Notes: generated by a model from the letters alone, not told the origin. Counted from the stretch's first letter, positions 19,904-40,746 are shown. The stretch: 64,000 nucleotides of DNA from Erwinia sp. Eh17-17 (GCF_039675725.1 NZ_JBDFQT010000004.1:146881-210880), one strand, 5' to 3'. Translations and numbers: made by a program.

Positions 19904-21400
19904 CTACATCTGTTTGCTGGTCTTGATTTACATACCGGCCTGTTCCTGGTTCTTGCTCTGTTGTTTGTATTATTTTATGAGGCAATCAATGGCTTCCACG
20001 ATACGGCCAACGCGGTAGCAACCGTAATTTATACCCGTGCAATGCGATCGCAGTTAGCGGTGGTGATGGCCGGGGTGTTCAACTTCTTTGGTGTGCTGCT
20101 GGGCGGCTTAAGCGTAGCTTATGCAATTGTCCATCTGCTCCCCACCGATCTCCTGCTTAACGTTGGTTCTGCTCACGGTCTGGCGATGGTCTTCTCCATG
20201 CTGCTGGCAGCTATCATCTGGAATCTTGGTACCTGGTATTTCGGGTTACCGGCCTCCAGCTCCCACACCCTGATCGGTGCCATTATCGGTATTGGCCTCA
20301 CCAACGCGTTGCTGACTGGCACCTCGGTGGTTGATGCGCTCAATATTCCTAAGATGATTGGCATCTTCATGTCGTTGATTATTTCACCGATTGTTGGCCT
20401 GGTCGTCGCGGGTGGACTGGTGTTTCTGCTGCGCCGTTACTGGAATGGCAGTAAAAAACGTCAGCGTGTCCACATGACCCCGGCTGAACGTGAAAAGATC
20501 GACGGCAAGAAAAAGCCACCGTTCTGGACGCGGACCGCGTTGATTGTCTCGGCGATTGGCGTCAGCTATTCGCACGGTGCAAACGACGGTCAGAAAGGTA
20601 TCGGCCTGATTATGCTGGTGCTGATTGGCGTGGCACCGGCGGGCTTTGTGGTCAATATGAACTCCAGCGGTTATGACATCACGCGCACGCGCGATGCGGT
20701 TAACCACCTGGAGCAGTATTACGATCAGCATGCGGCATCGCTGACACACATCATCCAGATGACGCCTCCGGCGCTGCCAACCCCGGAAGAAGTGCCGTCA
20801 GGCCCGAAAGAGTTCCACTGCGATGCAGCACGCGCGCTGTCTGCTATCCAGCGAGCGCAGGGTCTGCTGAACAATCTCACCAGCTATGACACGCTCAGCG
20901 TCGAGCAGCGCAGCCAGCTGCGTCGCCTGCTGATGTGCATCGCGGATACCGCAGAAAAAACTGCCAAGCTGCCGGAAACCACGTCAGACGACAAACGTTT
21001 CCTCAGCAAGCTGAAAGGCGACCTGCTGAATACCGTTGAGTATGCCCCGGTGTGGATTATTCTGGCCGTAGCGTTAGCGCTGTCGCTGGGTACGATGATT
21101 GGCTGGCGCCGTGTTGCCACCACCATCGGTGAGAAAATCGGTAAGAAAGGGATGACTTACGCCCAGGGGATGTCGGCGCAGATGACGGCCGCGGTCTCTA
21201 TCGGCGTGGCGAGTTATACCGGAATGCCGGTATCTACCACCCACGTGCTCTCCTCTTCCGTTGCCGGTACGATGCTGGTTGACGGCGGTGGCGTTCAGGG
21301 CCGCACCATTAAGAACATCCTGCTGGCGTGGGTGTTAACCCTGCCGGTGTCGATTGTGCTTTCCGGTGTGCTGTACTGGCTGGCGTTGAAATTGATTTGA
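19904..21400 (+). CDS. pitA: Low-affinity inorganic phosphate transporter PitA
   Basis: [57 protein letters not shown]... is near-identical to E. coli PitA along its full length. Confidence 0.95.
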
Positions 21401-21450
21401 TATGGTTGCGGGCGGACCGAAACAGCAGGTCCGTCCCTACTGTACGATGC

Positions 21451-21487
21451 AAAAAAGGGCGACCATTTTAATGGCCGCCCTTTTTTT
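21451..21487. terminator. Bidirectional terminator between pitA and uspB
   Basis: aaaaaa gggcgaccat ttta atggccgccc ttttttt. Confidence 0.7.
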
Positions 21488-21818
21488 AATGCCAGATGGC
21501 TAAACCAATCAGGCTAATCACCACCAGCCCGCACAGGGCGCTGGTTAAAACAAACTGGCCTCGCAGCCGCTGACAGCGGCGAATAAACTCATCGTCATGA
21601 TGGTCGAGATAGCGCTGATACCAGATGTAGCCAATCAGCCGGACCTGCTTACCCGGCTGCCCGTGAGACGTAAAAAAACCCCCGCCATCCACGTACTGAT
21701 ACAGCAGCGGATCGCAGCCACGCAGCACCACTAACAGTGCCCGTAGCGAAGAGAAGTAGCGCGCCATATTCACTACACAAACGACACAAAGAGCCCAGAA
21801 AAGCGCAACGGTGCTGAT
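21486..21818 (-). CDS. uspB: Universal stress protein B
   Basis: The 111-aa product [55 protein letters not shown]... matches E. coli UspB. The track ORF is longer, but only this segment is conserved. Confidence 0.9.
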
Positions 21819-22130
21819 CATGATCCCCTCCCGGACTTTCATCAGGAAATACGCTACGCGGCCAGAGCCGGGTGCAATCCCGATGGTTAGCCAACTTTTA
21901 TTATTAAGATGATTGCTGCCCGCCGGACGGCGAAAAAATGTACTTTTAATGCCGTCTGTAATCAGTGTAGGAGATCTGTTTAAATTTTTTCCAGTGCTGT
22001 TTTCATCCGCGACGGATTTTAGACAAAAAATCATGTTGATCGCCCTCGCAAACGCTGCCCTGTGTACCAACACCCGGAAGCAATTTTCGCTATACTTAGC
22101 CCCAACACTTACGTGAAAAGGAGTATTCAA

Positions 22131-22568
22131 ATGGCCTATAAACATATTTTAATTGCCGTCGACCTGTCGCCGGAAAGTAAACTGCTGGTCGACAAGGCCG
22201 TATCGATGGCACGCCCTTACGACGCCAAAGTGTCCCTGATCCACGTTGATGTGAACTATTCCGATCTCTACACCGGTCTGATTGACGTTAACCTTGGGGA
22301 TATGCAGAAACGTATTTCTGAAGAGACGCACACCGCGCTGACCGACCTGTCCAACAGCGCAGGCTACCCGATTGCCGAAACGCTAAGCGGCAGCGGCGAC
22401 CTCGGCCAGGTGCTGGTCGACGCCATCAAGCAGTATCAGGTAGATTTAGTGGTGTGTGGGCACCACCAGGATTTCTGGAGCAAACTGATGTCCTCTGCCC
22501 GCCAGCTGATCAACACCGTTCATATTGATATGTTGATCGTGCCGCTGCGCGATGACGAGGACGACTAA
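22131..22568 (+). CDS. uspA: Universal stress protein A
   Basis: [67 protein letters not shown]... is about 90% identical to E. coli UspA. Confidence 0.95.
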
Positions 22569-22595
22569 GGCATCACTGGCTGACCGGCGACAGGT

Positions 22596-22745
22596 ACGTA
22601 GGGGTCGACCTTTTTTTCCGGTCGACCCGTGTTTTCTGGTCGACCTTGTTTTCCGGTCGACCCTTATTTTCCGGTCGACCCTTATTTTCCGGTCGACCCT
22701 TGTTTTCCGGTCGACCCGCGTTTTCCGGTCGACCCGTGTTCGCTG
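22596..22745. repeat. Tandem array of 8 x 17/18-bp units with the palindromic core GGTCGACC
   Basis: GGTCGACC recurs at 22603, 22620, 22638, 22655, 22673, 22691, 22709 and 22727. The unit is TTTTCCGGTCGACCCNTG and the array is preceded by cgtaggggtcgacc. It lies between convergent uspA and rsmJ. Confidence 0.85.
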
Positions 22746-22758
22746 GCAAAGCGCTCAA

Positions 22759-23514
22759 TCAGCCCTGCGCCAGCGGCGCATAAATATCAAAACGGTGGCT
22801 TTTGGTGGCGACGGCATTTGGCGTAGCCACTCCGGCCAGCGGCGGCGCATAGTCCGGGCGCTTAACCACAACGCGTTTCTTCGCCAGCTGGCGTGCAGGC
22901 AACAGCAGCCCGTCGGCATCAATATCCGGCCCCACCAGCGACTGAAACACCCGCATCTCTTTTTTCACCAGCGCACTTTTCTGCTTGTGCGGATACATCG
23001 GGTCAAGATACACCACGTCCGGCGGCGGGCTGATATCCGTCAGCGCACTGAGGCTGGAGGCATGCAGCAGCGTCAGGCGCTCGCGCAGCCACGGGCCAAT
23101 TTCCGCATCGGCGTAGCCGCGCTGTAAACCATCATCCAGCAGCGCGGCCACCACCGGGTTGCGCTCCAGCATCCGCACCCGGCAGCCAACAGACGCCAGC
23201 ACAAATGCATCGCGCCCCAGCCCGGCGGTGGCATCCACCACATCGGGCAGGTAGCCGCTCTTTATGCCGACCGCTTTCGCCACCGCTTCACCGCGGCCAC
23301 CGCCAAACTTGCGGCGGTGCAGCATTGCCCCGGAGACAAAATCGACAAAGATGCCGCCGAGCTTCGGTTCATCGCGCTTGCGCAGCTCCAGATGGTCAAC
23401 CGTCAGCACCAGCGCCATCAGCGCATCGTCATCGTGTACCAGCTGCCAGCGGGCGGCTAAAACAGATAAGGCGCCATCGCTGGCGCCCGTTTCATCTAAC
23501 AAACAGATGTTCAC
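22759..23514 (-). CDS. rsmJ: 16S rRNA (guanine1516-N2)-methyltransferase RsmJ
   Basis: [37 protein letters not shown]... aligns along its full length to E. coli RsmJ (YhiQ). Confidence 0.9.
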
Positions 23515-23521
23515 TGATAAC

Positions 23522-25564
23522 TTACCCTTTGATGCCGTAGTGTTTCAGCATCGCATCCAGCTGCGGCTCGCGGCCACGGAAGCGACGGAACAGTTCCATC
23601 GGCTCCTCCGATCCCCCCCGCGTCAGGATGTTGTCGAGGAAGGACTGCCCGGTTTCCCGGTTAAAGATGCCCTCTTCTTCAAAGCGGGAATAGGCATCCG
23701 CCGCCAGCACATCCGCCCACAGATAGCTGTAGTAACCTGCGGCATAGCCACCGGCAAAGATGTGGCTGAAGGCATGGGGGAAGCGGCCCCACGACGGCCC
23801 CGGCACCACGGCCACCTGAGCTTTAATCTCTTGCAGAATCTCCAGGATCCACGCCCCTTTCGCCGGGTCAAACTCGGCGTGCAGGCGGAAGTCGAACAGG
23901 CCGAACTCCAGCTGGCGGAGGATAAACAGCGCTGCCTGATAGTTTTTCGCCGCCAGCATTTTATCCAGCAGATCTTTTGGCAGCGGTTCCCCGGTCTCGT
24001 AGTGGCCGGAGATAAATGCCAGCGCTTCCGGCTCCCAGCACCAGTTTTCCATAAACTGGCTTGGCAGCTCGACGGCATCCCACGGTACACCGCTGATGCC
24101 TGACACCCCCGGAGTTTCAATGCGCGTCAGCATATGGTGCAGGCCGTGGCCGAACTCGTGGAACAGGGTGGTGACTTCATTATGGGTAAACAGTGCAGGC
24201 TTGCCGCTCACCGGACGGTTGAAATTACAGGTCAGGTAAGCAACCGGCTTCTGCAGGGTACCGTCGGCTTTACGCATCTGGCCCACACAGTCATCCATCC
24301 ATGCCCCGCCGCGTTTGTTTTCCCGCGCATACAGGTCCAGATAGAAGCTGCCACGCAGCTCACCGCTGTCGTCAAACAGGTCAAAGAAGCGCACGTCCGG
24401 GTGGTAAACATCCACGTCGTGACGCTCGCTGGCGGTGATGCCATAAATACGCTTCACCACTTCAAACAGGCCATCCAGCGCGCGCTGAGCCGGGAAGTAC
24501 GGGCGCAGCTGTTCGTCGCTGATGGTGTACAGATGCTGTTTCTGCTTCTCGCCGTAATAGGTCATGTCCCACGGCTGTAGGTCATCTACTCCGTACTCTT
24601 TCTGAGCGAAGGCGCGCAGTTGAGCCACCTCCTGTTCGGCCTGAGGACGGGCGCGTTTAGCCAGGTCGGTCAGGAAGTCGATCACCTGCGCCGGGTTTTC
24701 AGCCATTTTGGTCGCCAGTGACTTGTCAGCATAAGAATCAAAGCCCAGCAGCTGTGCCAGCTCATGACGCAGCGCCAGCTCTTCCGCCATCACCTCGCTA
24801 TTATCCCACTTGCCGGCATTCGGCCCCTGATCGGAGGCACGGGTGGAGTAGGCGCGGTACAGCTCTTCGCGCAGCGCCTGGTTGTCGCAGTACATCATCA
24901 CCGGCAGATAGCTTGGAATATCCAGCGTCAGCAGCCAGCCTTCCTGCTCTTTGGCTTCGGCCTGCGCTCTGGCGGCGGCCAGCGCGCTTTCCGGCATGCC
25001 GGACAGTTCGCTTTCGTCAGCGATCAACTTGCTCCAGCCCATGGTGGCATCCAGCACGTTATTGCTGTAGGTCGACCCCAGCTCGGACAGACGCGCGGAG
25101 ATTTCGCCATAGCGCTGCTGCTTCTCTTTCGACAGGCCAATACCGGACAGTTCGAAATCACGCAGCGCGTTATCCACCGCTTTCTTCTGCGCCAGATCCA
25201 GCGCGGCGAAGTTTGCCCCCTCTTTCAGGTCGCGATAGGCCTGATACAGCCCCTCATGCTGGCCTACCCAGGTGCTGTACTCAGACAGCAGCGGCAGCGT
25301 CTGCTCATAGGCCTGGCGCAGCTCCGGGCTGTTTTTCACCGAATTCAGATGGCTGACCGGTGAGAACAGGCGGCTTAAGCGGTCATCTACTTCGGCCAGC
25401 GGTTGTACCAGGTTATCCCAACTGTACGGCGCGCCCTGAGCAACCGCCTTTTCAACCGCTGCACGGCTGTCATTCAGCGCCTGAGTCACGGCAGGCACCA
25501 CATGTTCAGGTTGAATGGCGGAGAAAGGGGGAAGCGTAAAAGAGGAGAGTAACGGATTGGTCAT
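23522..25564 (-). CDS. prlC: Oligopeptidase A
   Basis: 680 aa with an M3 zinc-peptidase HEFGH motif ([15 protein letters not shown]). Conserved synteny with rsmJ. Confidence 0.95.
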
Positions 25565-25791
25565 AGCGCAGTCCTTTAATCGTTGATATGGGGCGCATGT
25601 TTTCGCGCGATTTATTTAAGATGGGGTTAAGCACAGAGAAAATCAATGGGTCAGGGCAGCGACGGTGCCATTCACGGCGCGCAGAAGCCCATTTTTACCG
25701 CACTTTACGCATTGCCACACTCCGTCTGGCGTAGCATACTCCCCCCGCTTTAATACGTCGTATAACTCCGTTACAAACAGGGAGGTTATTT

Positions 25792-26616
25792 ATGTGGTAT
25801 ACGCTGGCGGCCTCGTTACTTTTTCTACCTATTTATCTGCGCAGTTCTCTGGTGCTTCTTGCCATTGCACTGGGGCTGGCGGTGTCTGACCATACCCTGC
25901 AACCGCCGGGCATTATCGCGCTGCTCGTCATCGGCGTTGTCGCCGTCTACTGCGGCGGTAAGAAGCAACCGCATGCCTTCTCGCTGCCCGGCGAAATCAT
26001 CCTCGTGGTCAGTGCAATCGCCCTGATGCTGCATATGATCCCAGGGTTTAATAACCTGATCATTGTGTCTGGTGAACAGGCCGGGCCACAAAGCGCGCCC
26101 TTCACTTTTTATTACAACATTGATAAAGCGCTGATCCCTTTTCTGCTGTTAGCCTGCCTGCCCACCCTGCTGAAACGGCCGGCTAGACCCCCGGCGAACG
26201 CGCTCTGGTGGCTGGTGCTGCTGATGTCGCTGCCGCTGCTGCTGCTGCTGGCAACGTTAGCCGGGGGGCTGAGAGTCGAGCTGCACCGGCCAGAGTGGCT
26301 GGGATCGTTTATGCTGGCCAATCTGTTTTTTGTCTGTCTGGCCGAAGAGGCGCTGTTTCGCGGCTATATCCAGCAGCGTCTGAGCCAGCTGCTGGGCGAT
26401 AAACGAGCGCTGTTGATTGCCGCCCTGCTGTTTGGTTTCGCTCATTTCTCCGGCGGCCTGCTGCTGATGCTGTTTGCCACACTGGCCGGGCTGATTTACG
26501 GCCTGGCCTGGCTGTGGAGCGGGCGGCTGTGGGTGTCTACGCTGGTACATTTCGCCTTTAATATGCTGCACCTGCTGTTCTTCACCTATCCGGTCTGGCA
26601 GCGAATCCCGACTTGA
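25792..26616 (+). CDS. CPBP-family intramembrane glutamic endopeptidase (CAAX protease/Abi family)
   Basis: Multi-TM protein with the three CPBP motifs EEALFRGY, FGFAHF and HFAFN. Not present at this position in E. coli. Confidence 0.75.
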   Translation: MWYTLAASLLFLPIYLRSSLVLLAIALGLAVSDHTLQPPGIIALLVIGVVAVYCGGKKQPHAFSLPGEIILVVSAIALMLHMIPGFNNLIIVSGEQAGPQSAPFTFYYNIDKALIPFLLLACLPTLLKRPARPPANALWWLVLLMSLPLLLLLATLAGGLRVELHRPEWLGSFMLANLFFVCLAEEALFRGYIQQRLSQLLGDKRALLIAALLFGFAHFSGGLLLMLFATLAGLIYGLAWLWSGRLWVSTLVHFAFNMLHLLFFTYPVWQRIPT

Positions 26617-26710
26617 ACGCGCTTTTTTAAGCCGTTTTCGCTATAATGAGCGCAACCTGTGCCGCCCGGTGGCGGCACGCTCGCATTTACCATCCGGATT
26701 ATCCCAATAC

Positions 26711-27553
26711 ATGCTCAGTTATCGCCACAGCTTCCATGCCGGCAACCACGCCGACGTTCTCAAACATACCGTGCAGAGCCTGATTATCAGCGCGTTAAAT
26801 GAGAAGGAAAAACCCTATCTTTACCTCGATACCCACGCGGGTGCCGGGCGTTATCTGTTAAGCGGTGAGCATGCGGAGCGTACCGGAGAGTACCTGGAAG
26901 GTATTGCGCGCATCTGGCAGCAGGATGACCTGCCGGAAGAGCTGGCCGCGTATATCAGCGTGGTGAAGAACTACAATCCCGGCGGCAAACTGCGCTACTA
27001 CCCTGGCTCGCCGCTGATCGCCCGTCATCTGCTGCGCGAGCACGACCAGCTACAGCTGACCGAGCTGCACTCCAGCGACTTCCCGATGCTGCGCAGCGAA
27101 TTCCAGAAAGATGACCGTGCGCGTCTCGCCCGTGCCGACGGCTATCAGCAGCTGAAGTCCAAACTGCCGCCGCCGTCGCGCCGGGGTCTGATCCTCATCG
27201 ACCCGCCGTATGAGATGAAAAGTGATTATCAGGCCGTGGTGCAGGGGATCCAGGAAGGCTACAAGCGCTTCGGTACCGGTGTGTTTGCGCTGTGGTATCC
27301 GGTAGTGCTGCGCCAGCAGATCAAGCGTATGTTCAACGAACTGCAGGCGACCGGTATTCGCCGCATTCTGCAGATCGAGCTGGGCGTGCGCCCGGACAGT
27401 GATCGCTTTGGCATGACCGCATCGGGCATGATCGTGATTAACCCGCCGTGGAAGCTGGAGCAGCAGATGAACAACGTGCTGCCGTGGCTGGAAAAAGTGC
27501 TGGTGCCTTCAGGTACGGGTCACCACAAAGTCAGCTGGATCGTGCCGGAATAA
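26711..27553 (+). CDS. rlmJ: 23S rRNA (adenine2030-N6)-methyltransferase RlmJ
   Basis: MLSYRHSFHAGNHADVLKHTVQSLII... is near-identical to E. coli RlmJ (YhiR). Confidence 0.95.
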   Translation: MLSYRHSFHAGNHADVLKHTVQSLIISALNEKEKPYLYLDTHAGAGRYLLSGEHAERTGEYLEGIARIWQQDDLPEELAAYISVVKNYNPGGKLRYYPGSPLIARHLLREHDQLQLTELHSSDFPMLRSEFQKDDRARLARADGYQQLKSKLPPPSRRGLILIDPPYEMKSDYQAVVQGIQEGYKRFGTGVFALWYPVVLRQQIKRMFNELQATGIRRILQIELGVRPDSDRFGMTASGMIVINPPWKLEQQMNNVLPWLEKVLVPSGTGHHKVSWIVPE

Positions 27554-27744
27554 TCTGCGGCACGGGGCGACCGAAAAAGAAGGTCTACATCACTGCTGGT
27601 GGAAATCTGCGGCACGGGGCGACCGGAAAAAAAGGTCTACATCACTGCTGGTGGAAATCTGCGGCACGGGGCGACCGGAAAAAATGGTCTGCATCACTGC
27701 TGGTGGAAATCTGCGGCACGGGGCGACCGGAAAAAATGGTCGCC
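27553..27744. repeat. 3.5 x 52-bp tandem repeat ending in a perfect 9-bp-stem hairpin
   Basis: The unit atctgcggcacggggcgaccgaaaaagaaggtctacatcactgctggtggaa begins at 27553, 27605 and 27657, with a partial copy at 27709. The last copy ends in ggggcgacc-ggaaaaaat-ggtcgcccc at 27718..27744. Confidence 0.85.
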
Positions 27745-27756
27745 CCCTACGATTTA

Positions 27757-28368
27757 TTCCCAATCCGATCGCAAAATCCCCATCCGGTCGCGTAATCCCC
27801 ATCCAACCGCGTAATCCCCATCCAAACGCGTAATCCCCAATCCGACCGCGTAATTCCCCATCCGACCGCAAAATCCCCATCCGACCGCGTAATCCCCAAT
27901 CCGACCGCGTAATTCCCCATCCGACCGCGTAATCCCCCATCCAACCGCGTAATCCCCCATCCGGTCGCGTAATCCCCAATCCGACCGCAAAATCCCCATC
28001 CGACCGCAAAATCCCTATCCGACCGCGTAATCCCCCATCCAACCGCGTAATCCCCATCCAAACGCGTAATCCCCCATCCGGTCGCGTAATCCCCATCCAA
28101 ACGCGTAATCCCCAATCCGACCGCAAAATCCCCATCCGACCGCGTAATTCACCATCCGACCGCATAATCCCCCATCCGGTCGCGTAATCCCCCATCCAAA
28201 CGCGTAATCCCCAATCCGATCGCAAAATCCCCATCCGACCGCGTAATTCCCCATCCGGTCGCGTAATTCCCCATCCGGTCGCGTAATCCCCCATCCGGTC
28301 GCGTAATCCTCAATCCGACCGCAAAATCCCCATCCGACCGCGTAATCCCCCCAATCGCGTAATTCCTC
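27757..28368. repeat. About 30 tandem copies of a 19-21-bp unit (CGCGTAATCCCCATCCGAC-like) with point variants
   Basis: Contiguous units (atccgaccgcgtaatcccc, atccaaccgcgtaatcccc, atccaaacgcgtaatcccc, aatccgaccgcaaaatcccc ...) with no spacers. Several ORFs open in multiple frames are artefacts of the repeat. Confidence 0.85.
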
Positions 28369-28370
28369 CG

Positions 28371-28400
28371 CGATCGCGTAGGGGCTGACCTTCTTTTTCG
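28371..28400. repeat. Terminal hairpin element of the repeat array
   Basis: cgtaggggctgacc-ttcttttt-cggtcagccc. It is related to cgtaggggtcgacc at 22596 and to the reverse complement of ggtcgccccctacg at 27736. Confidence 0.7.
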
Positions 28401-28418
28401 GTCAGCCCGCTATCACAG

Positions 28419-29333
28419 TCAGAGCGGAAACACCGCGAAATCATGCGCCATCTCGGTGTGTTCAAACACCGCCCGGCACTCCGCCAGCAGCCGTTCACTA
28501 TCACCCCGCAGGTAACGCGTGCTGAGATGCGTAACAATCAGCCGTTTTGCGCCGCTTTCCAGCGCCACTTTTGCCGCCTGCGCCGTGGTGGAATGCCCGC
28601 GGCTGTTGGCCTTCTCTTCCATCGCCACTTCCAGCGTGGCCTCATGCACCATCAGGTCTACCCCCGCTGCCATTTCGTTCGCCGCCGCCGTCGGTGCGGT
28701 ATCGCCAAAAATCGCCAGGCTGCGCCCTTTGATTTTATCGCCCACGTAATCCCAGCCGTTAAGGGTCCGGCCATCCGGCAGCGTCACGCGCTTACCGTGC
28801 TTCAGGTCATAGAAGTAAGGCCCGGCAGGAATGCCGTCGGCGGCCAGCTTCGTCGCATCCAGCGCGCCCGGCTTATCATGCTCATCAATGCGGTAGCCGT
28901 AACACTCCACCGGATGGGTCATCGGGTACGCCGTTACGCGGAAATGCTCATCGTTGCACACCTCACCCGCGCTAATTTCGATAATCTCCAGCGGGAAGGT
29001 CAGCCACGAGCCGCTCAGGCTGAGGGTGGTTTCGACAAAGGTTTTCAGCCCCGCAGGGCCGTATATCGTCATGGGGTCGGTAGAGCCGTTCATCGACCGG
29101 CTGGTGAGCAGACCCGGCAGGCCAAAAATATGATCGCCGTGCAGATGGGTAATAAAGATCTTCTCGATCTTCCCCGGCTTGATCGGGGTGCGCAGGATCT
29201 GGTGCTGCGTGGCCTCCCCGCAGTCAAACAGCCAGGTGGCATTGCGCACCCCCTGCAAATCCAGCGCTATGCTGGTGACGTTGCGCTCGCGACCGGGCGT
29301 TCCGGCACCGGTACCTAAAAACTGCAATTGCAT
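28419..29333 (-). CDS. rbn: Ribonuclease BN / RNase Z (tRNA 3'-end processing metallo-beta-lactamase)
   Basis: [26 protein letters not shown]...[17 protein letters not shown]... aligns along its length with E. coli RNase BN (ElaC) and has the HxHxDH motif. The longer track ORF from 29372 overlaps rtcR. Confidence 0.85.
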
Positions 29334-29352
29334 AATTGACGGACTCCCTGAG

Positions 29353-30936
29353 CTATTGTTGCGGTAATTCACCCGACTTCACGCTGTCCCAGTCTAACGC
29401 AAAACGGGCCAGATACTTGCGCAGCCGGTCGGCGTCATTCGGCTGTTTCTTCTGCTGGCGTGAAACGGCAAACAGCGTGCGGCCGGCCTCCGACAGCGAT
29501 GCGGATTCGCGACACACCTTCAGCACCGTCTCCAGCTGGCTGTGGTCAAACAGATCCAGCGTCTCCGGTAACACCAGCGTGGGTTCAAGCTGCCAGCTGG
29601 CGCGCAGGCGGGCGATCTCTTCTTCCACCTGCGCCAGTTCGATACGGCCGTTATCCGCCAGCGTGGCCATGCGGGTGACGGAGGCGCTCAGCTCGCGAAA
29701 GTTACCGCGCCACAGGGCAGCAGGCGCGCAGGCAAATTGCAGGTAACGCTGACGCGCCTGCGGCTCAAAACGCACCTGCGACTGGGCATCGCTGGCAAAG
29801 CGCAGCAGTTCAAACTCCAGATTAGGTTCAATATCTTCACGCCGTTCCGCCAGCCCCGGCAGCGTAAAGCTCCACATATTAATACGCGCATAGAGATCCT
29901 CACGGAAGCGCCCTTCCGCCACCCACTGGCGCATATCGCGATGGGTCCCGGCGATCAGCTGAAAATCACTGCTGACCTCTTTATCCGCGCCGAACGGCAG
30001 GAAGCGCTTCTCTTCTATCGCTTTCAGCAGCATCGCCTGTTCATCCAGCCCCAGCTCGGCAATCTCATCAAGAAATAACATGCCGCCGTCGGCCTCACGC
30101 AGCAGCCCGTTGCGCGGCTGCAACGCGCCGGTGAAGGCCCCTTTCACATGGCCAAACAGCGTGGACATGGCATTATCACCGCGCAGCGTGGCGCAGTTGA
30201 CCGCCACCAGCCTGCCGCTGACCCGATGACGTGACTGGCGCAGCTGATAAATTCGCTCGGCCAGAAACGATTTGCCCGCCCCGGTCGGGCCGCTCAGCAG
30301 CAGTGGCGCGTCCGAGCGCAGCGCCACCCGTTCAATCTGATCGATCAGGTTATTAAAGGTGGCGTTACGCGTGGAAATACCGCCCTTCAGCAGCGATACC
30401 GACTCCTGACGTTCGCGCATAAAGCGGCTGGTCAATGTGGCATAACGGCTCAGGTCGAGGTCAATCAGCGTACAGACGCCCTCGGTTTTGGCACTCTCCT
30501 GTTCACGCGGGGCGGGGGCCGTTTGCAGCAGTCTGGCGGGCAGATAGCGTGCCTCGGTCAGCAGGAACCAGCAGATCTGCACCACATGCGTTCCGGTGGT
30601 GATATGCACCAGATACTCTTCATTCTCGGTATCAAAAGGATAGTGGCGGGCAAAATCGAGCAGGACGGTGTACACCTCCTCAAAATCCCACGGGTCATTC
30701 AGCGTAATCGGGTTCAGCCGCACCTCGGTTTCCGGCGAGACCAGCGCGATATCCTCCGACATTTGCTGTGCCATGGTCTGACGGTCGGGCTGATGCAGCA
30801 GGTCCAGGCGGTCAACCGGCAGATCCGGCTGCATGCACAGCCCCAGCGTCGGTCGCCATTTGTTCCAGCGGTTTTCACGCTTGCCCCGCTTATCCAGCGT
30901 GGTTCCCAGCATGCCTATCACCACTCTGCGCTTCAT
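29353..30936 (-). CDS. rtcR: Sigma-54-dependent transcriptional activator RtcR (N-terminal CARF domain, AAA+ and HTH)
   Basis: 527 aa with full-length similarity to E. coli RtcR (...[13 protein letters not shown]...[28 protein letters not shown]...[17 protein letters not shown]...GAFTGA...). Walker A and the GAFTGA sigma-54 contact motif are present. Confidence 0.9.
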
Positions 30937-30957
30937 GCCTTATCCTTTTATCGCAAT

Positions 30958-30977
30958 ATTTATCCCACAGGATAAAT
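30958..30977. promoter_or_regulatory. Perfect 8-bp inverted repeat ATTTATCC-caca-GGATAAAT in the rtcR upstream region
   Basis: It lies about 20 bp upstream of the rtcR start. A candidate operator. Confidence 0.35.
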
Positions 30978-31071
30978 TCCTCCCTCAACCCGCAGCAAGC
31001 CCTTTCTTTCGCGTAAAAATAAAAATGATATTTATCAATCAACTAAAAATAATTTCACCTTTTTTTTCACC

Positions 31072-31089
31072 CTGGCACGCTTCTGGCAA
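31072..31089 (+). promoter_or_regulatory. Sigma-54 (-24/-12) promoter for the SPFH-rtcB-rlaP operon
   Basis: TGGCACGcttcTGGCAA: GG at 31074-75 and GC at 31086-87, 12 bp apart as in the TGGCACG-N4-TTGCW consensus. It is oriented toward rtcB, and the divergent activator is RtcR. Confidence 0.7.
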
Positions 31090-31197
31090 TAGTTACCCCG
31101 TCGATATGCTGAATCATGCCAGGGTTATGAACCCAGCCGGCGCACCGGGAACGGATGACCGTTTTCCCGCAGGCGTTCCGTCAGCACCAGACATTTT

Positions 31198-31243
31198 GCG
31201 AAGGGCACAGGGCCAGAACGGGTTCGACTCCCGGCTTCGCACC
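31198..31243 (+). ncRNA. tRNA-like minihelix (acceptor stem plus T-arm mimic) in the operon leader; candidate structured ncRNA element
   Basis: 5' gcgaag (31198-203) pairs with cttcgc (31235-240) followed by ACC. Between them is a cggg-TTCGACT-cccg T-arm with the canonical GGTTCGAnTCC T-loop. There is no D or anticodon arm. Confidence 0.45.
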
Positions 31244-31433
31244 TCTCTCCCAGGAGCCTTGAATAGCAGTACCCCGGCTGTGCAGTCAGCAGCCCACCCG
31301 GAGCACCGGCTAACGCGTCGGGTCTGGGGCATCATCTCCGCGCCGCCGCCGTACCGGGTGCCGCTCAGATGCTCCCCCAGGCTTCACGCCGCAGCCCGCG
31401 CTCCGCGGTGCCCAAATTAATTAAGGAGATAAG

Positions 31434-32567
31434 ATGTTTAAGAAATTCACCATACGGAAAGGTCAAATCGCGTTGCTGTCAAAGAACGATGAATACCAAC
31501 AAATTTTGCCAGCCGGGGAGTATCGTTTCCGCGACTGGCGCCTTCAGCTCCAGGTCGCGACCTTCGGGCTGAATGAGCCGCTGGATAGTCCCCTGGCCGA
31601 CTACCTGCAACAGTATCACCCGCAGTGGGTAAGCGAGTTCTGTCAGACGGTGGCGGTGCCTGAAACCTGCGTCGGCCTGCACTATAAAAATGACCAGCTG
31701 GTGGAGATCCTGCCGCCGGGTACGCGCCGCCTGTGGTGGCTGAACGGCAGCGCGCAGCGCGTCGACCTGCTGTCCACCGATACGGTAGAGATCCCGGCGA
31801 CCATCGTCGCCAGCCTGATGCAGCCACAGCTGCGCCAGCACGTGGTGGCCGGTAACGCCGGAGTACTGCTGGTGCAGATACCGGCCTGGCATGTGGGCAT
31901 CCTGAAGGTTGACGGCATGCCGCAGGCGCTGCTGCCGCCCGGAGCCAGCGGCTACTGGCGCTTCAACCATCAGGTTGATGTTGAGGTGGTGGACACCCGC
32001 GTGCAGGCGCTGGAAGTGAGCGGCCAGGAGATTCTGACGCGTGATAAAGTCAGCTTACGCATCAATCTGGCGGCCAACTGGCGCTACAGCGATGTGATGA
32101 GCGCCTATGCGCAGCTGACCAAACCGCTGGAATACCTCTACCGTGAGCTGCAGTTTGCGCTGCGGGAAGCGGTCGGGACGCGCAGCCTGGACGAACTGCT
32201 GGAAAATAAGCAGGCGATCGATGAGCTGGTAAGCACGCAGATCCGCCAGAACGTGGCGGCTTACGGGATGGAAGTGGCCTCACTGGGGGTGAAAGACATC
32301 ATCCTGCCGGGAGAGATGAAGACCATCCTTACCCGCCTGGTGGAGGCGGAGAAATCGGCCCAGGCAAACGTGATCCGTCGGCGCGAAGAGACGGCCGCCA
32401 CCCGATCGCTGCTGAATACGGCCAAAGTGATGGAAAACAACCCGGTCGCACTGCGCCTGAAGGAGCTGGAAACGCTGGAAAGAGTGGCAGAGCGCATCGA
32501 TAAAATCTCCGTATTCGGCGGCCTGGACCAGGTGCTGAACGGACTGGTACAGATAAAAGGGAACTGA
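31434..32567 (+). CDS. SPFH/band-7 (slipin-like) domain protein without an obvious N-terminal TM helix
   Basis: 377 aa with an SPFH-like core and a C-terminal coiled-coil (EAEKSAQANVIRRREETAATRSLLNTAKV...). Its stop lies 3 bp before the rtcB start. Confidence 0.7.
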   Translation: MFKKFTIRKGQIALLSKNDEYQQILPAGEYRFRDWRLQLQVATFGLNEPLDSPLADYLQQYHPQWVSEFCQTVAVPETCVGLHYKNDQLVEILPPGTRRLWWLNGSAQRVDLLSTDTVEIPATIVASLMQPQLRQHVVAGNAGVLLVQIPAWHVGILKVDGMPQALLPPGASGYWRFNHQVDVEVVDTRVQALEVSGQEILTRDKVSLRINLAANWRYSDVMSAYAQLTKPLEYLYRELQFALREAVGTRSLDELLENKQAIDELVSTQIRQNVAAYGMEVASLGVKDIILPGEMKTILTRLVEAEKSAQANVIRRREETAATRSLLNTAKVMENNPVALRLKELETLERVAERIDKISVFGGLDQVLNGLVQIKGN

Positions 32568-32569
32568 CA

Positions 32570-33787
<1,218 letters not shown>

Positions 33788-33799
33788 GGAGCAAACCTG

Positions 33800-34591
33800 A
33801 TGAATACAGAAGAAGCCGTCAGCCCGGCGATGCGCGAGCGGGTGCTGGCAGCATTAAAGGCGATTGAAGTCCGCGAAAACGTGCGCGTGCTGTACGCCTG
33901 CGAGTCCGGCAGCCGGGGCTGGGGATTCGCTTCACCCGACAGCGACTACGATGTGCGCTTTATCTACGTGCATCAGCCTGAGTGGTATCTGCGCGTGGAG
34001 CCGCCGCGTGATGTAATCGAACGGCCGATCGACAGCGAGCTGGACGTCTGCGGCTGGGAGCTGCGCAAAACGCTGGGGCTGCTGAAGGCCGCCAACCCGA
34101 CGCTGATGGAGTGGCTGGACTCGCCGGTGGTTTATCGCCAGCACCCGGACGCGGTGCAGGCTTTACGCGGGCTGGTGCCGGATTTCTTCAGCGATCTGCG
34201 GGCGCGCTACCACTATCTGTCGATGGCGAAGAAGAACTTTCGCGGCTATTTACAGGGCGAGTCGGTGCGGCTGAAAAAGTACTTCTACGTGCTGCGCCCG
34301 CTGCTGGCCGTGCAGTGGATCGAAGCCGGGAAAGGCATACCGCCAATGCGTTTTGACCGGCTAATGGCGGGAACGGTAAGCGACCCGCTGCTGCGGGCAG
34401 AGATCGACGCCCTGCTGGAAAATAAACGCCAGGCGGGTGAAGCGGAGTACGGCCCGCGCCGTGAGCGGATCCATGCCTTCATTGGGCAGCAGCTGGCACG
34501 GCAGGAGCGTCCGCCGCTGGATGACACACCGCGCCGCGATGCCAACGCCCTGAACCAGCTGCTGATGCAGACGGTACTTTCCCCGGTATAA
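33800..34591 (+). CDS. Pol-beta-superfamily nucleotidyltransferase of the RtcB-associated (RlaP-like) type
   Basis: The minimal nucleotidyltransferase motif GSRGWGFASPDSDYDV (GS...DxD) near the N-terminus. It is the third gene of the operon. The family assignment is from memory of RtcB-linked nucleotidyltransferases. Confidence 0.65.
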   Translation: MNTEEAVSPAMRERVLAALKAIEVRENVRVLYACESGSRGWGFASPDSDYDVRFIYVHQPEWYLRVEPPRDVIERPIDSELDVCGWELRKTLGLLKAANPTLMEWLDSPVVYRQHPDAVQALRGLVPDFFSDLRARYHYLSMAKKNFRGYLQGESVRLKKYFYVLRPLLAVQWIEAGKGIPPMRFDRLMAGTVSDPLLRAEIDALLENKRQAGEAEYGPRRERIHAFIGQQLARQERPPLDDTPRRDANALNQLLMQTVLSPV

Positions 34592-34595
34592 AAAC

Positions 34596-34619
34596 AGGCA
34601 CAGGGTGCGCTCTGTGCCT
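34596..34619 (+). terminator. Stem-loop after the operon
   Basis: aggcacag ggtgcgct ctgtgcct. There is no strong T-run. Confidence 0.35.
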
Positions 34620-34770
34620 CCCCCTATCACAATCATAGACGCAACCTTTGCGGCTTTTCCCCTTGTGGCGTTACACTCTATGCCAGCTGATTTAACTCAA
34701 TCAGGGTCTGGCCGGACAGGCATCATTGTTGCAGCCTGTCTGGACAGACTCTCACTAAACGGAAGACTCG

Positions 34771-36181: not shown

Positions 36182-37324
36182 CTAGTAATAGTTAATGGTA
36201 AAGGTCGCCGTGGCATTCGCTTTGCCCGGCGTGACCGGGCCGCTGGTTTTGATATAGCGGGCGACCAGCGCAACAGCCCTTGTTCTGATGTCAGCGCTGC
36301 CTAAGAGCGTGTTTTTTGCTATCGCAAAATTAACCAGAGGTGGGGACACCTGCCCCGTGGCTCCATAGGCAAGTTGAATACCCACGCCGGAAGCGGTGCC
36401 GCTTCCCGATTGCAGATTAAAAATACCCTTTACTGAATCTGTTACCGGGGTATTCGGCTGAATCGATACGCTGATTGAATTAGGTGTCATCGCACCGATA
36501 GCGCTATTGCCATTGTCGGAATAATAACTGTTGCGTCCATCGGTCAGTTTGCCGTAAAAGCGCGGGCAGTTGGTCATTATGATTGACGCATCCTTCCAGG
36601 GCGTGCCATCTCCCGCATTTTTAAACTGCCCGATATCGTAGCTGCCCATATTCACCGTGACGTCCGGCGTGGTACAGGTGGCTGAGACGATATTCAGCGA
36701 GCCAACAAAGCTGGTTTCCACGGCTTTAATTGGCGTAATGTTTGAGGCTTCAAAGAAAGAGCCGAGCGTGGGCAACGAAGCCCCGTCTAAAACACCCGGC
36801 TGGATATCCCCGATTTTGATTAAAACCATATCGAAGTCGTAGCCGTTATTAGCCGTAAATGTGTAAGCTGGAGCCGCATTGGTGCCACCCCATGAATTCT
36901 GACTAAAAGGGACTATGGGCACCGATGCATCGGTACCACGGCGAAAGAGTACGCCAATACCCGGCACATTAGTCTCCATAATCTTGCCCGCATACGCGGA
37001 GACACCGCCATCAGAACTCGATACCGGATAAGGACGGTGCGTGAATCGATAGCTCGATGAAGGCTGATAGATCCCGCTATTATTGCTACAGTGAAAACTA
37101 ATCGGGCCAGAAGGCCGATAGTATTGCTCATGGATCACCGTACCGTTTGGCACATCAGGACCAACGGTGATATTGCTTCCCTGAATCGGCATCTGCATGG
37201 TAATCAGTGCGGAGCCCGGGCTAAATTCACAGGTCAACGCGCTGGCTCCCGTCGCGGCCATCAGCAGTGACAGCAGCAGCGTGCTGCGCATCACCCCTTT
37301 TTTAATCAATTGCATATTATTCAT
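36182..37324 (-). CDS. Fimbrial tip adhesin (large two-domain pilin, about 380 aa)
   Basis: Signal peptide MNNMQLIKKGVMRSTLLLSLLMAATGASA and the pilin C-terminus ...ATFTINYY. It is the last gene of a chaperone-usher operon. Confidence 0.65.
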   Translation of the reverse strand: MNNMQLIKKGVMRSTLLLSLLMAATGASALTCEFSPGSALITMQMPIQGSNITVGPDVPNGTVIHEQYYRPSGPISFHCSNNSGIYQPSSSYRFTHRPYPVSSSDGGVSAYAGKIMETNVPGIGVLFRRGTDASVPIVPFSQNSWGGTNAAPAYTFTANNGYDFDMVLIKIGDIQPGVLDGASLPTLGSFFEASNITPIKAVETSFVGSLNIVSATCTTPDVTVNMGSYDIGQFKNAGDGTPWKDASIIMTNCPRFYGKLTDGRNSYYSDNGNSAIGAMTPNSISVSIQPNTPVTDSVKGIFNLQSGSGTASGVGIQLAYGATGQVSPPLVNFAIAKNTLLGSADIRTRAVALVARYIKTSGPVTPGKANATATFTINYY

Positions 37325-37328
37325 AGCC

Positions 37329-39944: not shown

Positions 39945-39987
39945 CCTGGCTCCGGCCTTTTGGTCATAGTTTTGGGAGAGAGTGCGG

Positions 39988-40683
39988 CTATTTAACGCTG
40001 GCGCTGCCGTTGACGATCGCGCCGTAGTCATTGACCGAACTGACGGCAAGCTGACTGCCCGCTCTGGCACCCGGCAGGGCAAAAGAGAGTGAGCCGTTCG
40101 GCGGAACCATCTGGCCCTCGACTTTTTTGCCACCCAGCGACAGCTCGACCAGGGAGACGTTATAAGGCGTCGGATTAACCGCGGTGACGCCACCGGGGCT
40201 GGCAGTCCAGGTCAGGGCTTTGACGGCATCGTTGGCGTTGCCCGTCAGTCCGGCCGGACGGAAAAAGAGCTTGATACGCGAACGAAAAGCCATCTGCAGC
40301 AGATTGTCAGACTGCAACGTTTTATCTTTGGCCGGAATTTCCAGAACATTAAGGAAGAACACCGACTCTTTATTCGACGGCAGCGGCGCACCGGTATAGC
40401 TCAGGCGCAGGGTCTGACCCTTTTTCGCTTCGATACGGTTAATCGGCGGCGTTAATATAAACGGCACCTGAATTTTTTCCGGTTTCGCCTCAGCGTCGCC
40501 ATTATCTATCCAGCTCTGAACCAACACCGGAGACTTTCCGACATTATCTAATTTTATCGTCACCTCTTTCTGCCCGGCGGGGTATATCACGCGTGTCCCA
40601 CTGATAATGACACCGGCAAAGGATGGCAGACTGAAAAAGGCAGTGAACAGGGAGAGAAGGAAATAAATAAATAAGCGAGGCAT
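39988..40683 (-). CDS. Periplasmic fimbrial chaperone
   Basis: MPRLFIYFLLSLFTAFFSLPSFAGVIISGTRVIYPAGQKEVTIKLDN... matches the PapD-like fold motifs. Confidence 0.85.
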   Translation of the reverse strand: MPRLFIYFLLSLFTAFFSLPSFAGVIISGTRVIYPAGQKEVTIKLDNVGKSPVLVQSWIDNGDAEAKPEKIQVPFILTPPINRIEAKKGQTLRLSYTGAPLPSNKESVFFLNVLEIPAKDKTLQSDNLLQMAFRSRIKLFFRPAGLTGNANDAVKALTWTASPGGVTAVNPTPYNVSLVELSLGGKKVEGQMVPPNGSLSFALPGARAGSQLAVSSVNDYGAIVNGSASVK

Positions 40684-40746
40684 AGCTGTTTCTCAGTAAG
40701 ATAAATAAGGGCAGCTATGACTGCCCTTTTATGATCTGCCAGCAGA

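What the first reader, a model, noticed from the sequence alone, without database searches (positions are those of the whole stretch)
22596..22745. Sister repeat array with palindromic GGTCGACC core between uspA and rsmJ; same motif family as the island-border array
Eight 17/18-bp units each contain the perfect palindrome GGTCGACC. The array is introduced by cgtaggggtcgacc, and the same cgtagggg(N)(N)gacc(t) signature flanks the arrays at 27736 (reverse complement) and 28371.

This indicates a lineage-specific family of tandemly amplifying mini-elements placed between convergent genes; REP/BIME-like in location but different in structure.

E. coli has dtpB between uspA and rsmJ, and here it is absent. 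Because 18 bp is a multiple of 3, the repeat could encode GRPENK hexapeptide repeats in the artefactual ORF following the rsmJ stop.
Basis: seen in the sequence. Interest (0 to 1): 0.55.

Follow-up and report, generated by a model that had tools for sequence, protein, structure and literature searches.

The report
REP hairpin stuttered into variable array
The 18-bp repeat array between uspA and rsmJ is one copy of an ordinary bacterial "REP" hairpin element whose second arm has been duplicated over and over, giving a stretch whose length differs between strains; it is real and tidy, but a variation on a well-known theme.

Summary
There are eight GGTCGACC cores at 17/18-bp spacing at 22603-22734 (TRF score 206; 10 cores in the window against 0.9 expected).

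The array starts with a canonical GTAG-tagged REP: GTAG, a 9-bp stem GGG-NN-GACC, a 9-nt T-rich loop, then GGTC-NN-CCC. Three more copies lie in the window.

The family is abundant in relatives:
- A metagenome scan hit its 120-locus limit.
- It gave 237 hairpins, 215 of them with GTAG on the T-rich-loop strand only.
- The inner stem pair was complementary in 215 of 224, across 9 dinucleotide types.
- 89% lie outside ORFs, and they are almost absent between divergent genes.

Two Y1-transposase (RAYT-like) genes, from Erwinia aphidicola and E. rhapontici, are flanked by these REPs.

The window is Erwinia sp. Eh17-17. Other assemblies of this species carry 3, 6 and perhaps 7 units with identical flanks, so the array is a VNTR. 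A second locus shows 1, 2 and 3 right arms at a 19-bp period with non-palindromic arms. The repeat unit is therefore "REP right arm + about 10 nt", and the palindrome is incidental.

The most likely mechanism is replication slippage. Function is probably neutral, though the hairpin-plus-U-tract looks terminator-like on the uspA strand only.

Verdict: a new member of a known kind. Interest is low to moderate.

The parts
22131..22568 (+). uspA, the gene upstream of the array. Its stop codon lies 29 nt before the GTAG of the REP.
   Evidence: NCBIfam NF011698 UspA, E=5.9e-93. The exact protein is shared with E. persicina.
22598..22628 (+). Founding REP: GTAG, left arm GGGGTCGACC, 9-nt loop TTTTTTTCC, right arm GGTCGACCC.
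   Evidence: Matches the family pattern. The RNA hairpin is -16.5 kcal/mol and the DNA hairpin -10.1 kcal/mol.
22603..22734 (+). Array of eight GGTCGACC arms at 17/18-bp spacing. Arm 1 is left-arm type (G before it). Arms 2 and 4-8 are right-arm type (C after them). Arm 3 is neither.
   Evidence: Copy number is 8 here and 6, 3 and perhaps 7 in other assemblies of the same species.
22629..22744 (+). The reiterated part: T-rich 9-10-nt spacers alternating with right arms, ending in the original 3' flank CGTGTTCGCT.
   Evidence: Spacer 2 (CGTGTTTTCT) resembles the 3' flank (CGTGTTCGCT). A second locus has the same architecture.
22759..23514 (-). rsmJ, convergent with uspA. Its stop codon lies 14 nt beyond the last unit.
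   Evidence: NCBIfam NF008012 RsmJ, E=9.9e-155. The exact protein is MEN5017304.1 of Erwinia sp. Eh17-17.
21410..21440 (-). Another family member, between pitA and uspB: GTAGGGACGGACC-TGCTGTTTC-GGTCCGCCC, with one bulged A in the stem.
27720..27750 (-). Another family member (stem variant GC/GC). It is the last, complete copy of the 52-bp array at 27552-27741.
28378..28408 (+). Another family member (stem variant CT/AG). With the copy at 27720-27750 it forms an inverted pair whose GTAG ends face each other across the 20-bp array.
27552..27741 (.). Sister array, 52-bp period, 3.7 copies. Each unit holds a REP with a truncated left arm (GTAGACC or GCAGACC on the - strand) plus flank.
   Evidence: There are 3.7 copies in L128 and no array in L129 or L131.
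27759..28351 (.). Sister array, 20-bp period, about 30 copies (CCCCATCCGACCGCGTAATC). It fills the spacer between the two inward-facing REPs.
   Evidence: There are 20.2, 13.3 and 17.2 copies in L128, L129 and L131.

Best explanation
The array is a variable-number tandem repeat that grew out of one REP (repetitive extragenic palindrome). Erwinia sp. Eh17-17 and its relatives carry a GTAG-tagged REP family: GTAG, then GGG-NN-GACC, a 9-nt T-rich loop, then GGTC-NN-CCC. In relatives, Y1-transposase (RAYT-like) genes are flanked by it.

One copie landed 29 nt after the uspA stop codon. It was the TC/GA stem variant, whose arms contain GGTCGACC. Its right arm plus about 10 nt of 3' flank was then duplicated in tandem (inferred). 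Once two 18-bp direct repeats existed, slipped-strand mispairing during replication added and removed units (inferred). This gives alleles of 3, 6, perhaps 7, and 8 arms in strains that are about 99% identical (shown).

The array is most likely selectively neutral. As a side effect, every pair of neighbouring arms can form an 8-9-bp G+C-rich hairpin. On the uspA strand only, each hairpin is followed by a U-rich tract. The array may therefore stop or stabilise the uspA transcript's 3' end (inferred, untested).
For: **The founding element fits the family.** Searches show 4 matches against 0.01 expected.

**Family properties, from 921 kb of related metagenome loci:**
- The inner stem dinucleotides, which the search pattern left free, are complementary in 215 of 224 cases across 9 types.
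- GTAG is on the T-rich-loop strand in 215 of 237 hairpins and never on the other strand. After removing one search-triggering copy per locus the figure is 98 of 120.
- 212 of 237 hairpins lie outside ORFs, although ORFs cover 85% of the DNA.
- Contexts are 110 convergent, 56 tandem and 3 divergent.
- Inverted dimers are common, with 44 + 14 adjacent pairs.

**Transposase association.**
- L193:4739-5212 encodes a 157-aa protein. It scores 78.7 bits on NF047646 REP_Tyr_transpos and 29 bits on Pfam Y1_Tnp (gathering score 23).
- The HUH and Tyr motifs align with E. coli RayT.
- REP arrays of this family flank it on both sides.
- Its cluster is annotated as 'transposase [Erwinia aphidicola]'.
- A paralogue-like protein, 59% identical, belongs to a cluster that includes E. 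rhapontici proteins and is also flanked by these REPs.

**The array is a VNTR.** There are 8 units in the window, 6 in L005/L128/L130, 3 in L129/L131 and 7 in L001. Flanks are identical and the strains are about 99% identical.

**The unit is the right arm plus flank.** One orthologous locus has 1 (L207), 2 (L178) and 3 (L235) right arms at a 19-bp period, with the non-palindromic arm GGTCAGCCC.

**Strand asymmetry.** Hairpins are -14 to -16.5 kcal/mol. They are followed by 5-6 U in 8 nt on the + strand (first five hairpins) and by 0-2 U on the - strand.
Against: - No RAYT-like gene has been shown in Eh17-17 itself. Only 64 kb of it is available, and tblastn of that was negative.
- The transposase score is just under NCBIfam's curated cut-off (78.7 against 80). 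There was no sequence match to solved structures.
- Slippage is inferred from the alleles, not observed.
- How the first duplication arose is unknown. About 50 other TC-type REPs are not expanded.
- Copy numbers come from short-read or metagenome assemblies, which can misjudge repeats. The 7-unit allele comes from a 31-mer graph contig that ends inside the array.
- The tool's terminator scan does not call these hairpins, because the loops are 9-10 nt and its limit is 8.
- Across the family there is no orientation bias relative to co-directional genes (31 against 25). The family as a whole is therefore not a terminator.
Confidence: 0.8

Rival explanations
1. The array is kept by selection as a stack of intrinsic terminators, or 3'-end protectors, for uspA. 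It would insulate the convergent uspA and rsmJ transcripts, and copy number would tune uspA mRNA level.
For: - On the uspA strand the first five hairpins are followed by 5-6 U in 8 nt; on the rsmJ strand by 0-2.
- No other hairpin-plus-U-tract lies between the uspA stop and the array.
- The folded region is far more stable than shuffles (z = -5.7).
Against: - Alleles with 3 to 8 arms coexist in near-identical strains.
- Sister species have quite different content in the same spacer: opposite-strand, degenerate or other-type REPs. No particular structure is conserved.
- The family shows no orientation bias relative to upstream genes.
Confidence: 0.12
2. The array is a set of binding sites for a dimeric DNA-binding protein that recognises the 8-bp palindrome GGTCGACC. 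Candidates would be an operator or iteron array, or a gyrase/IHF-type BIME function.
For: There are eight perfect 8-bp palindromes at a near-regular 17-18 bp spacing. From the literature, E. coli BIMEs bind gyrase, IHF and Pol I (background section of PMC2817692).
Against: - GGTCGACC is only one of 9 stem variants of the REP.
- About 50 other GGTCGACC REPs are simple hairpins.
- The analogous array at a second locus has non-palindromic arms.
- Unit number is not conserved.
- No promoter-like site is nearby.
Confidence: 0.04
3. The repeat encodes a GRPENK hexapeptide tail, reached by read-through of the rsmJ stop codon or as a small ORF.
For: The frame following the rsmJ stop reads GRPENA followed by four GRPENK.
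Against: - The 17-bp units break the frame after five repeats.
- The 3-unit and 6-unit alleles differ by 53 bp.
- RsmJ matches its full-length model over 248 of 250 positions, ending just before its own stop.
Confidence: 0.01
4. The array, or its copy number, is an assembly artefact.
For: The Logan contig L001 ends inside the array, and L130 ends at the sister arrays. Repeats of this kind are hard to assemble from short reads.
Against: - The array appears, with identical flanks, in six assemblies from four sources: the window, JGI x2, ENA x2 and Logan.
- The units differ in their spacers, and the 3-unit junction shares only about 8-14 nt with other junctions. That is too short for a de Bruijn shortcut (inference).
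Confidence: 0.03

Closest known systems
GTAG-tagged REPs, the REP/RAYT systems (Nunvar et al. 2010, PMC2817692; Di Nocera et al. 2013, PMC3733652; E. coli RayT/TnpA-REP)
   Same: - An unpaired GTAG at one end of a G+C-rich stem-loop.
- Stem variants kept by compensatory change.
- Many dispersed extragenic copies, mostly at the 3' ends of genes.
- Inverted dimers and tandem clusters.
- A small Y1 (HUH) transposase gene flanked by the repeats.
   Different: - The consensus (GGG-NN-GACC with a 9-nt T-rich loop) is not among the REP sequences listed in Table 1 of PMC2817692, and GTAGGGG was not found in the text or supplements of PMC3733652.
- PMC3733652 places Erwinia outside the enterobacterial cluster that carries GTAG-3 REPs.
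- The associated transposase is only 24% identical to E. coli RayT.
Tandem REP clusters and BIME-2
   Same: REPs reiterated in tandem together with flanking DNA, and varying in copy number. [quoted passage not shown] Here 30 such arrays have periods of 44-407 bp.
   Different: In the uspA-rsmJ array the unit is shorter than a REP: one arm plus about 10 nt, 17-19 bp. Only the first unit has GTAG. All arms point the same way, so there is no alternation of orientations as in BIMEs.
Bacterial VNTR / minisatellite loci used for MLVA typing
   Same: A short-period intergenic tandem repeat with conserved flanks and strain-specific copy number. Slipped-strand mispairing is the presumed mechanism.
   Different: This one has an identifiable origin in a mobile hairpin element, and neighbouring units are self-complementary.
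Rho-independent (intrinsic) terminators
   Same: A G+C-rich hairpin followed by a U-rich tract, on the uspA strand.
   Different: The loops are 9-10 nt, the U-tracts are interrupted (for example GUGUUUUCU), and the structure is repeated up to seven times. The consensus scan does not call it.

Membership tests
REP (GTAG-tagged, RAYT-associated) | Unpaired GTAG (or GTGG) tetranucleotide at one foot of the hairpin | tested here: met
   GTAG precedes the stem at 22598, and in all 4 window copies. It is on the T-rich-loop strand in 215 of 237 hairpins and never on the other strand. After removing one search-triggering copy per locus the figure is 98 of 120.
REP (GTAG-tagged, RAYT-associated) | Stem-loop maintained across copies | tested here: met
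   The inner stem dinucleotides were left free in the search pattern. They are complementary in 215 of 224 cases across 9 types, where chance would give 1 in 16.
REP (GTAG-tagged, RAYT-associated) | High copy number, dispersed through the genome | tested here: met
The 80 rows shown include at least 14 strict matches from one 1.45-Mb contig and at least 9 loci from a 0.91-Mb contig. For Eh17-17 itself only the window could be read: 4 copies in 64 kb.
REP (GTAG-tagged, RAYT-associated) | Extragenic, mainly at the 3' ends of genes | tested here: met
   212 of 237 lie outside crude ORF calls that cover 85% of the DNA. Contexts are 110 convergent, 56 tandem and 3 divergent.
REP (GTAG-tagged, RAYT-associated) | A Y1 (HUH) tyrosine transposase gene flanked by the same REPs in the genome | tested here: inconclusive
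   Met for the family. An E. aphidicola-type gene is flanked on both sides by the REPs, and so is a protein whose cluster includes E. rhapontici. The NF047646 score is 78.7 bits, just under the 80-bit cut-off. For Eh17-17 itself it is unknown: nothing was found in the 64-kb window, and the rest of the genome could not be read.
BIME (bacterial interspersed mosaic element) | REPs in alternating orientation, separated by conserved linker motifs | tested here: not met
   All eight arms are direct repeats behind a single GTAG head. Inverted dimers exist elsewhere in the family, but not in this array.
VNTR / minisatellite | Copy number differs between strains while the flanks are conserved | tested here: met
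   There are 8, 6, 3 and tentatively 7 units with identical flanks, in assemblies about 99% identical to the window.
Intrinsic terminator | G+C-rich stem, short loop (3-8 nt), then a run of U immediately after the stem | tested here: inconclusive
   The stems are 8-9 bp at -14 to -16.5 kcal/mol, and 5-6 U in 8 nt follow on the + strand. The loops are 9-10 nt, and the scan makes no call. No transcript data are available.
CRISPR array | Repeats of 23-55 bp separated by unique spacers of similar length | tested here: not met
   The repeat is 8 bp. The 'spacers' are 9-10 nt, T-rich and near-identical.

The most novel reading that the evidence does not exclude
Reiteration of a REP's right arm may be a distinct, recurrent way for REPs to evolve, which could be called 'arm stuttering'. 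It is seen here at two unrelated loci, with periods of 18 and 19 bp. It would create hypervariable stacks of hairpin-plus-U-tract modules at gene ends. At uspA such a stack could act as a contingency-type dial, setting termination or mRNA stability of a major stress gene strain by strain. The process might be started by the RAYT or by hairpin-stalled replication, rather than by chance duplication.
Probability: 0.12. Interest if true: 0.5.

Novelty: new member of a known kind. Interest (0 to 1): 0.3.

Why it matters
- **Annotation.** The result explains three conspicuous repeat arrays in this window as products of one REP family. This removes the need to postulate a new kind of element and flags the spurious ORFs that lie over them.
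- **A REP/transposase pair in Erwinia.** The family is documented in the Erwinia persicina / rhapontici / aphidicola group. The REP surveys I could read do not list it, and the transposase is annotated only as 'transposase'.
- **Strain typing.** The window offers three easily typed VNTR loci for discriminating strains.
- **A natural allele series.** Alleles with 1, 2 and 3 arms at one locus, and 3, 6 and 8 at another, could be used to test how REP hairpins seed tandem expansion, and whether stacked hairpins affect termination between convergent genes.

Tried and rejected
1. **Genome-contig scan** with GGTCGACC-N9-10-GGTCGACC-N9-10-GGTCGACC. The only genome scan was wasted, so species-wide counts had to come from metagenome contigs.
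2. **Rfam**, at permissive E-values, over 20000-30000. Only two chance-level hits; no known RNA family.
3. **Consensus terminator and promoter scan**. No call on the array.
4. **Exact look-ups** of PrlC and of P0122. Neither is on record.
5. **phmmer of the transposase against PDB sequences**. No match.
6. **tblastn of E. coli RayT against the window**. Nothing found.
7. **My first idea**, that the palindromic arm GGTCGACC makes the two arms direct repeats and so causes the expansion. I downgraded it. About 50 other GGTCGACC REPs are unexpanded, and the second expanded locus has non-palindromic arms.
8. **Second REP type** (GTAG-GGGNNNGGC-ATG-GCCNNNCCC-like), found in relatives. Absent from the window.
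9. **Literature searches** for an Erwinia REP/RAYT description, or for REP-derived VNTRs. Nothing specific was found in the held library.
10. **Coding and CRISPR readings.** Both rejected.

Full report
**1. The observation**

GGTCGACC occurs eight times between 22603 and 22734, at spacings of 17, 18, 17, 18, 18, 18 and 18 bp. The whole 64-kb window holds 10 copies, against 0.87 expected from shuffles. Tandem Repeats Finder reports 22603-22740, period 18, 7.8 copies, score 206.

The array lies between the stop codons of two convergent genes. These are uspA (+, ends 22568) and rsmJ (-, ends 22759), identified with NCBIfam. E. coli K-12 has yriA, yriB and dtpB between these two genes, so dtpB is indeed missing here. 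The frame that follows the rsmJ stop reads GRPENA followed by four GRPENK, and then loses register at the 17-bp units.

**2. What the array starts with**

The first two arms and the bases before them read GTAG-GGGTCGACC-TTTTTTTCC-GGTCGACCC. That is an unpaired GTAG, a 9-bp stem and a 9-nt T-rich loop.

The same design occurs three more times in the window:
- 21410-21440 (-)
- 27720-27750 (-)
- 28378-28408 (+)

That is 4 matches against 0.01 expected. The stems differ at the two inner positions by matched changes on both sides: TC/GA, GC/GC and CT/AG.

An unpaired GTAG beside a G+C-rich hairpin is the hallmark of REPs recognised by REP-associated tyrosine transposases (PMC2817692, PMC3733652).

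**3. Is it a REP family?**

I scanned metagenome contigs for GTAGGGG-NN-GACC-N5-TTYC-GGTC-NN-CCC, leaving both NN positions free. Among the 80 rows listed, one 1.45-Mb contig gave at least 14 strict matches.

In the 921 kb fetched:
- The two free dinucleotides are complementary in 215 of 224 hairpins, across nine types.
- GTAG is on the T-rich-loop strand in 215 of 237 hairpins and never on the other strand. After discarding one search-triggering copy per locus the figure is 98 of 120.
- 212 of 237 hairpins lie outside crude ORF calls, although those ORFs cover 85% of the DNA.
- Contexts are 110 convergent, 56 co-directional and 3 divergent.
- 89 hairpins are singletons. Of the adjacent pairs, 44 have GTAG ends facing each other, 14 have them outward, and 34 are head-to-tail.

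One locus, L193, holds nine REPs around a 157-aa ORF. The ORF scores 78.7 bits on NCBIfam 'REP-associated tyrosine transposase', where the cut-off is 80. It scores 29 bits on Pfam Y1_Tnp, where the gathering score is 23. Its HUH and Tyr motifs align with E. coli RayT, although overall identity is only 24%. Its 90% cluster is annotated 'transposase [Erwinia aphidicola]'.

A second protein, 59% identical to the first, belongs to a cluster that includes E. rhapontici and Erwinia sp. AnSW2-5. It is likewise flanked by same-family REPs.

The family therefore meets the structural, distributional and transposase-association criteria for REPs. One reservation remains: I could not test for the transposase in the window's own genome.

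**4. Whose genome, and what relatives show**

The window's RsmJ, CPBP protease and RtcR are exact matches to proteins of Erwinia sp. Eh17-17. Several metagenome and read-archive assemblies are about 99% identical to the window.

The related species are about 85-89% identical:
- E. persicina B64 (CP022725)
- E. rhapontici
- two E. aphidicola-like lineages

In every one of these lineages the uspA-rsmJ spacer holds REP material, but the content differs. It may be on the other strand, degenerate, duplicated with a 100-bp period, or of a second REP type with a GCATGC centre. Only the Eh17-17 lineage has the 18-bp array. The spacer is therefore a REP turnover hot spot with no conserved structure.

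**5. The array varies between strains**

| Assembly | Arms | Source |
|---|---|---|
| window | 8 | the window |
| L005 / L128 / L130 | 6 | two JGI metagenomes (L005 and L128 are the same contig) |
| L129 / L131 | 3 | two ENA assemblies |
| L001 | 7 | a read-archive contig that ends inside the array |

Flanks are identical in all of them. The 3-arm and 6-arm alleles differ by 53 bp, which rules out a coding repeat.

The sister arrays also vary. The 20-bp array has 30, 20, 13 and 17 copies, and the 52-bp array has 3.7, 3.7, 1 and 1.

All these are short-read or metagenome assemblies, so exact counts need confirmation. The junction sequences are too short to be produced by assembly-graph shortcuts (inference).

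**6. What the repeat unit is**

My first idea was that the palindromic arm GGTCGACC makes the two arms direct repeats as well as inverted ones, and that this invites slippage. The idea does not hold well.

First, about 50 other GGTCGACC-type REPs in relatives are plain two-arm hairpins.

Second, another locus shows the same architecture with a non-palindromic arm. Orthologous sites carry GTAG-GGGCTGACC-loop followed by one (L207), two (L178) or three (L235) copies of GGTCAGCCC plus about 10 T-rich nt, at a 19-bp period.

In the window array, arm 1 is left-arm type (G before it) and arms 2 and 4-8 are right-arm type (C after them). The second spacer (CGTGTTTTCT) also resembles the original 3' flank (CGTGTTCGCT).

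The unit is therefore 'REP right arm + about 10 nt of 3' flank'. Whole-REP tandem arrays with periods of 44-407 bp are common in the family: 30 of the 65 arrays found. This matches what PMC3733652 describes for REP clusters. The sub-REP unit is the unusual feature here.

**7. Mechanism and function**

Shown:
- The array derives from a REP.
- It has allelic length variation.
- Arm reiteration has happened at two loci.

Inferred:
- An initial 18-bp tandem duplication, cause unknown. Hairpin-stalled replication or transposase nicking are candidates.
- Ordinary slipped-strand mispairing afterwards.

On function, every pair of neighbouring arms folds at -14 to -16.5 kcal/mol. On the uspA strand the first five hairpins are followed by 5-6 U in 8 nt. 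On the rsmJ strand the figure is 0-2. The region folds far better than shuffles on both strands (z = -5.7 and -6.0).

The array could therefore terminate or protect the uspA 3' end. Several points argue against this being a selected function:
- The loops are 9-10 nt, and the consensus scan does not call them.
- The family shows no orientation bias relative to co-directional genes (31 against 25).
- Neither copy number nor spacer content is conserved.

I judge the array to be mostly a neutral by-product, with a possible incidental terminator effect.

**8. Comparison with what is known, and novelty**

The closest known systems are GTAG-tagged REPs with their RAYTs, and tandem REP clusters. The family passes the REP tests listed above. 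The array fails the BIME test, because orientations do not alternate, and it fails the CRISPR test.

I found no description of this Erwinia family in the library. Table 1 of PMC2817692 lists no Erwinia and no such consensus. PMC3733652 places Erwinia outside the enterobacterial cluster that carries GTAG-3 REPs. Searches for Erwinia together with RAYT or REPIN found nothing specific. The absence from a limited library is weak evidence.

I rate it a new member of a known kind, with a minor architectural twist (arm reiteration).

**9. Verdict**

It was right about family relatedness, the lineage restriction, the convergent-gene location, the amplification and the strain variation. It was wrong that the structure differs from REPs and that GGTCGACC defines an element.

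Interest is 0.3. The most novel reading still open is recurrent 'arm stuttering' acting as a tunable terminator stack at uspA. I give it a probability of about 0.12.

Noticed in passing
window 27759-28351: A 20-bp tandem array (CCCCATCCGACCGCGTAATC, about 30 copies) fills the spacer between two REPs whose GTAG ends face each other (27720-27750 on the - strand, 28378-28408 on the + strand). In the family such inward-facing pairs usually sit 25-33 bp apart. The unit shares CGCGTA with the sequence just before the REP head at 28372-28380. Copy number is 30, 20, 13 and 17 in four assemblies of the species.
   Followed up: partly
window 27552-27741: A 52-bp tandem array (3.7 copies) begins at the rlmJ stop codon. 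Its internal copies carry a REP with a truncated left arm (GTAGACC or GCAGACC instead of GTAGGGGGCGACC, read on the - strand). Only the last copy is complete. Two other assemblies of the species (L129, L131) have a single copy.
   Followed up: partly
window 36203-41619: A 5.4-kb segment is present in the window but absent from two other assemblies of the same species (L128, L129), which join cleanly across it. It encodes a chaperone-usher fimbrial operon: a FimA-like subunit, a PapD chaperone, an usher and a Fimbrial/MrkD-like adhesin.
   Followed up: partly
window 21410-21486: Between pitA and uspB, a REP with a bulged stem (21410-21440, - strand) sits next to a separate hairpin flanked by A-runs and T-runs (about 21452-21486). 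The second hairpin looks like a classical bidirectional terminator.
   Followed up: no
L141 200-240; L212 6680-6710; L264 (E. rhapontici) rlmJ-RNase Z spacer; L204 4477-4730: A second GTAG-tagged REP type, with a GCATGC centre (for example GTAGGGGTCGGGCATGCCCGACCC and GTAGGGGCGAGGCATGCCTCGCCC), coexists with the T-loop family in relatives. It also forms tandem arrays, such as a 38-bp period with 6.7 copies. None is present in the window.
   Followed up: partly
L264/L265 (E. rhapontici CP085627.1, AP024333.1), rsmJ 3' end: E. rhapontici RsmJ is called at 262 aa instead of 251. Its different C-terminal end runs through a REP-like hairpin (GGGACGCCCCTTCTTCCCGGTCGTCCC), so a REP insertion may have remodelled the gene's 3' end. 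The uspA-rsmJ spacer there is only 64 bp.
   Followed up: no
L193 4477-6240 (E. aphidicola-type contig Ga0308163_10000077): The RAYT-like gene sits between an ArgC-like gene and an MFS transporter gene. About 20 REPs surround it, arranged in 60-bp and 312-bp-period arrays that alternate with a second small hairpin (GGCCGACCAGAAAAGCGGTCGGCC). NCBI records name the protein only 'transposase' or 'hypothetical protein'. A spurious 310-aa ORF lies over the array.
   Followed up: partly
L214 1-1647: A 407-bp-period tandem array (4 copies), each unit containing a GGTCGACC-type REP. It is the largest-period REP-containing repeat seen in the related loci.
   Followed up: no
window 25792-26616 and 28419-34700: Gene order differs from E. 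coli K-12. A CPBP-family membrane protease gene lies between prlC and rlmJ. A block of RNase Z/BN, rtcR, a Band_7 gene, rtcB and an RlaP-domain gene lies between rlmJ and gor.
   Followed up: no
L009-L127 (genome-contig scan): Three GGTCGACC cores at an 18-bp period are common in high-G+C Actinomycetota, Myxococcota and Planctomycetota genomes. Some loci carry many consecutive matches, for example L020, L068 and L075. These are unrelated to the Erwinia element and were not examined.
   Followed up: no
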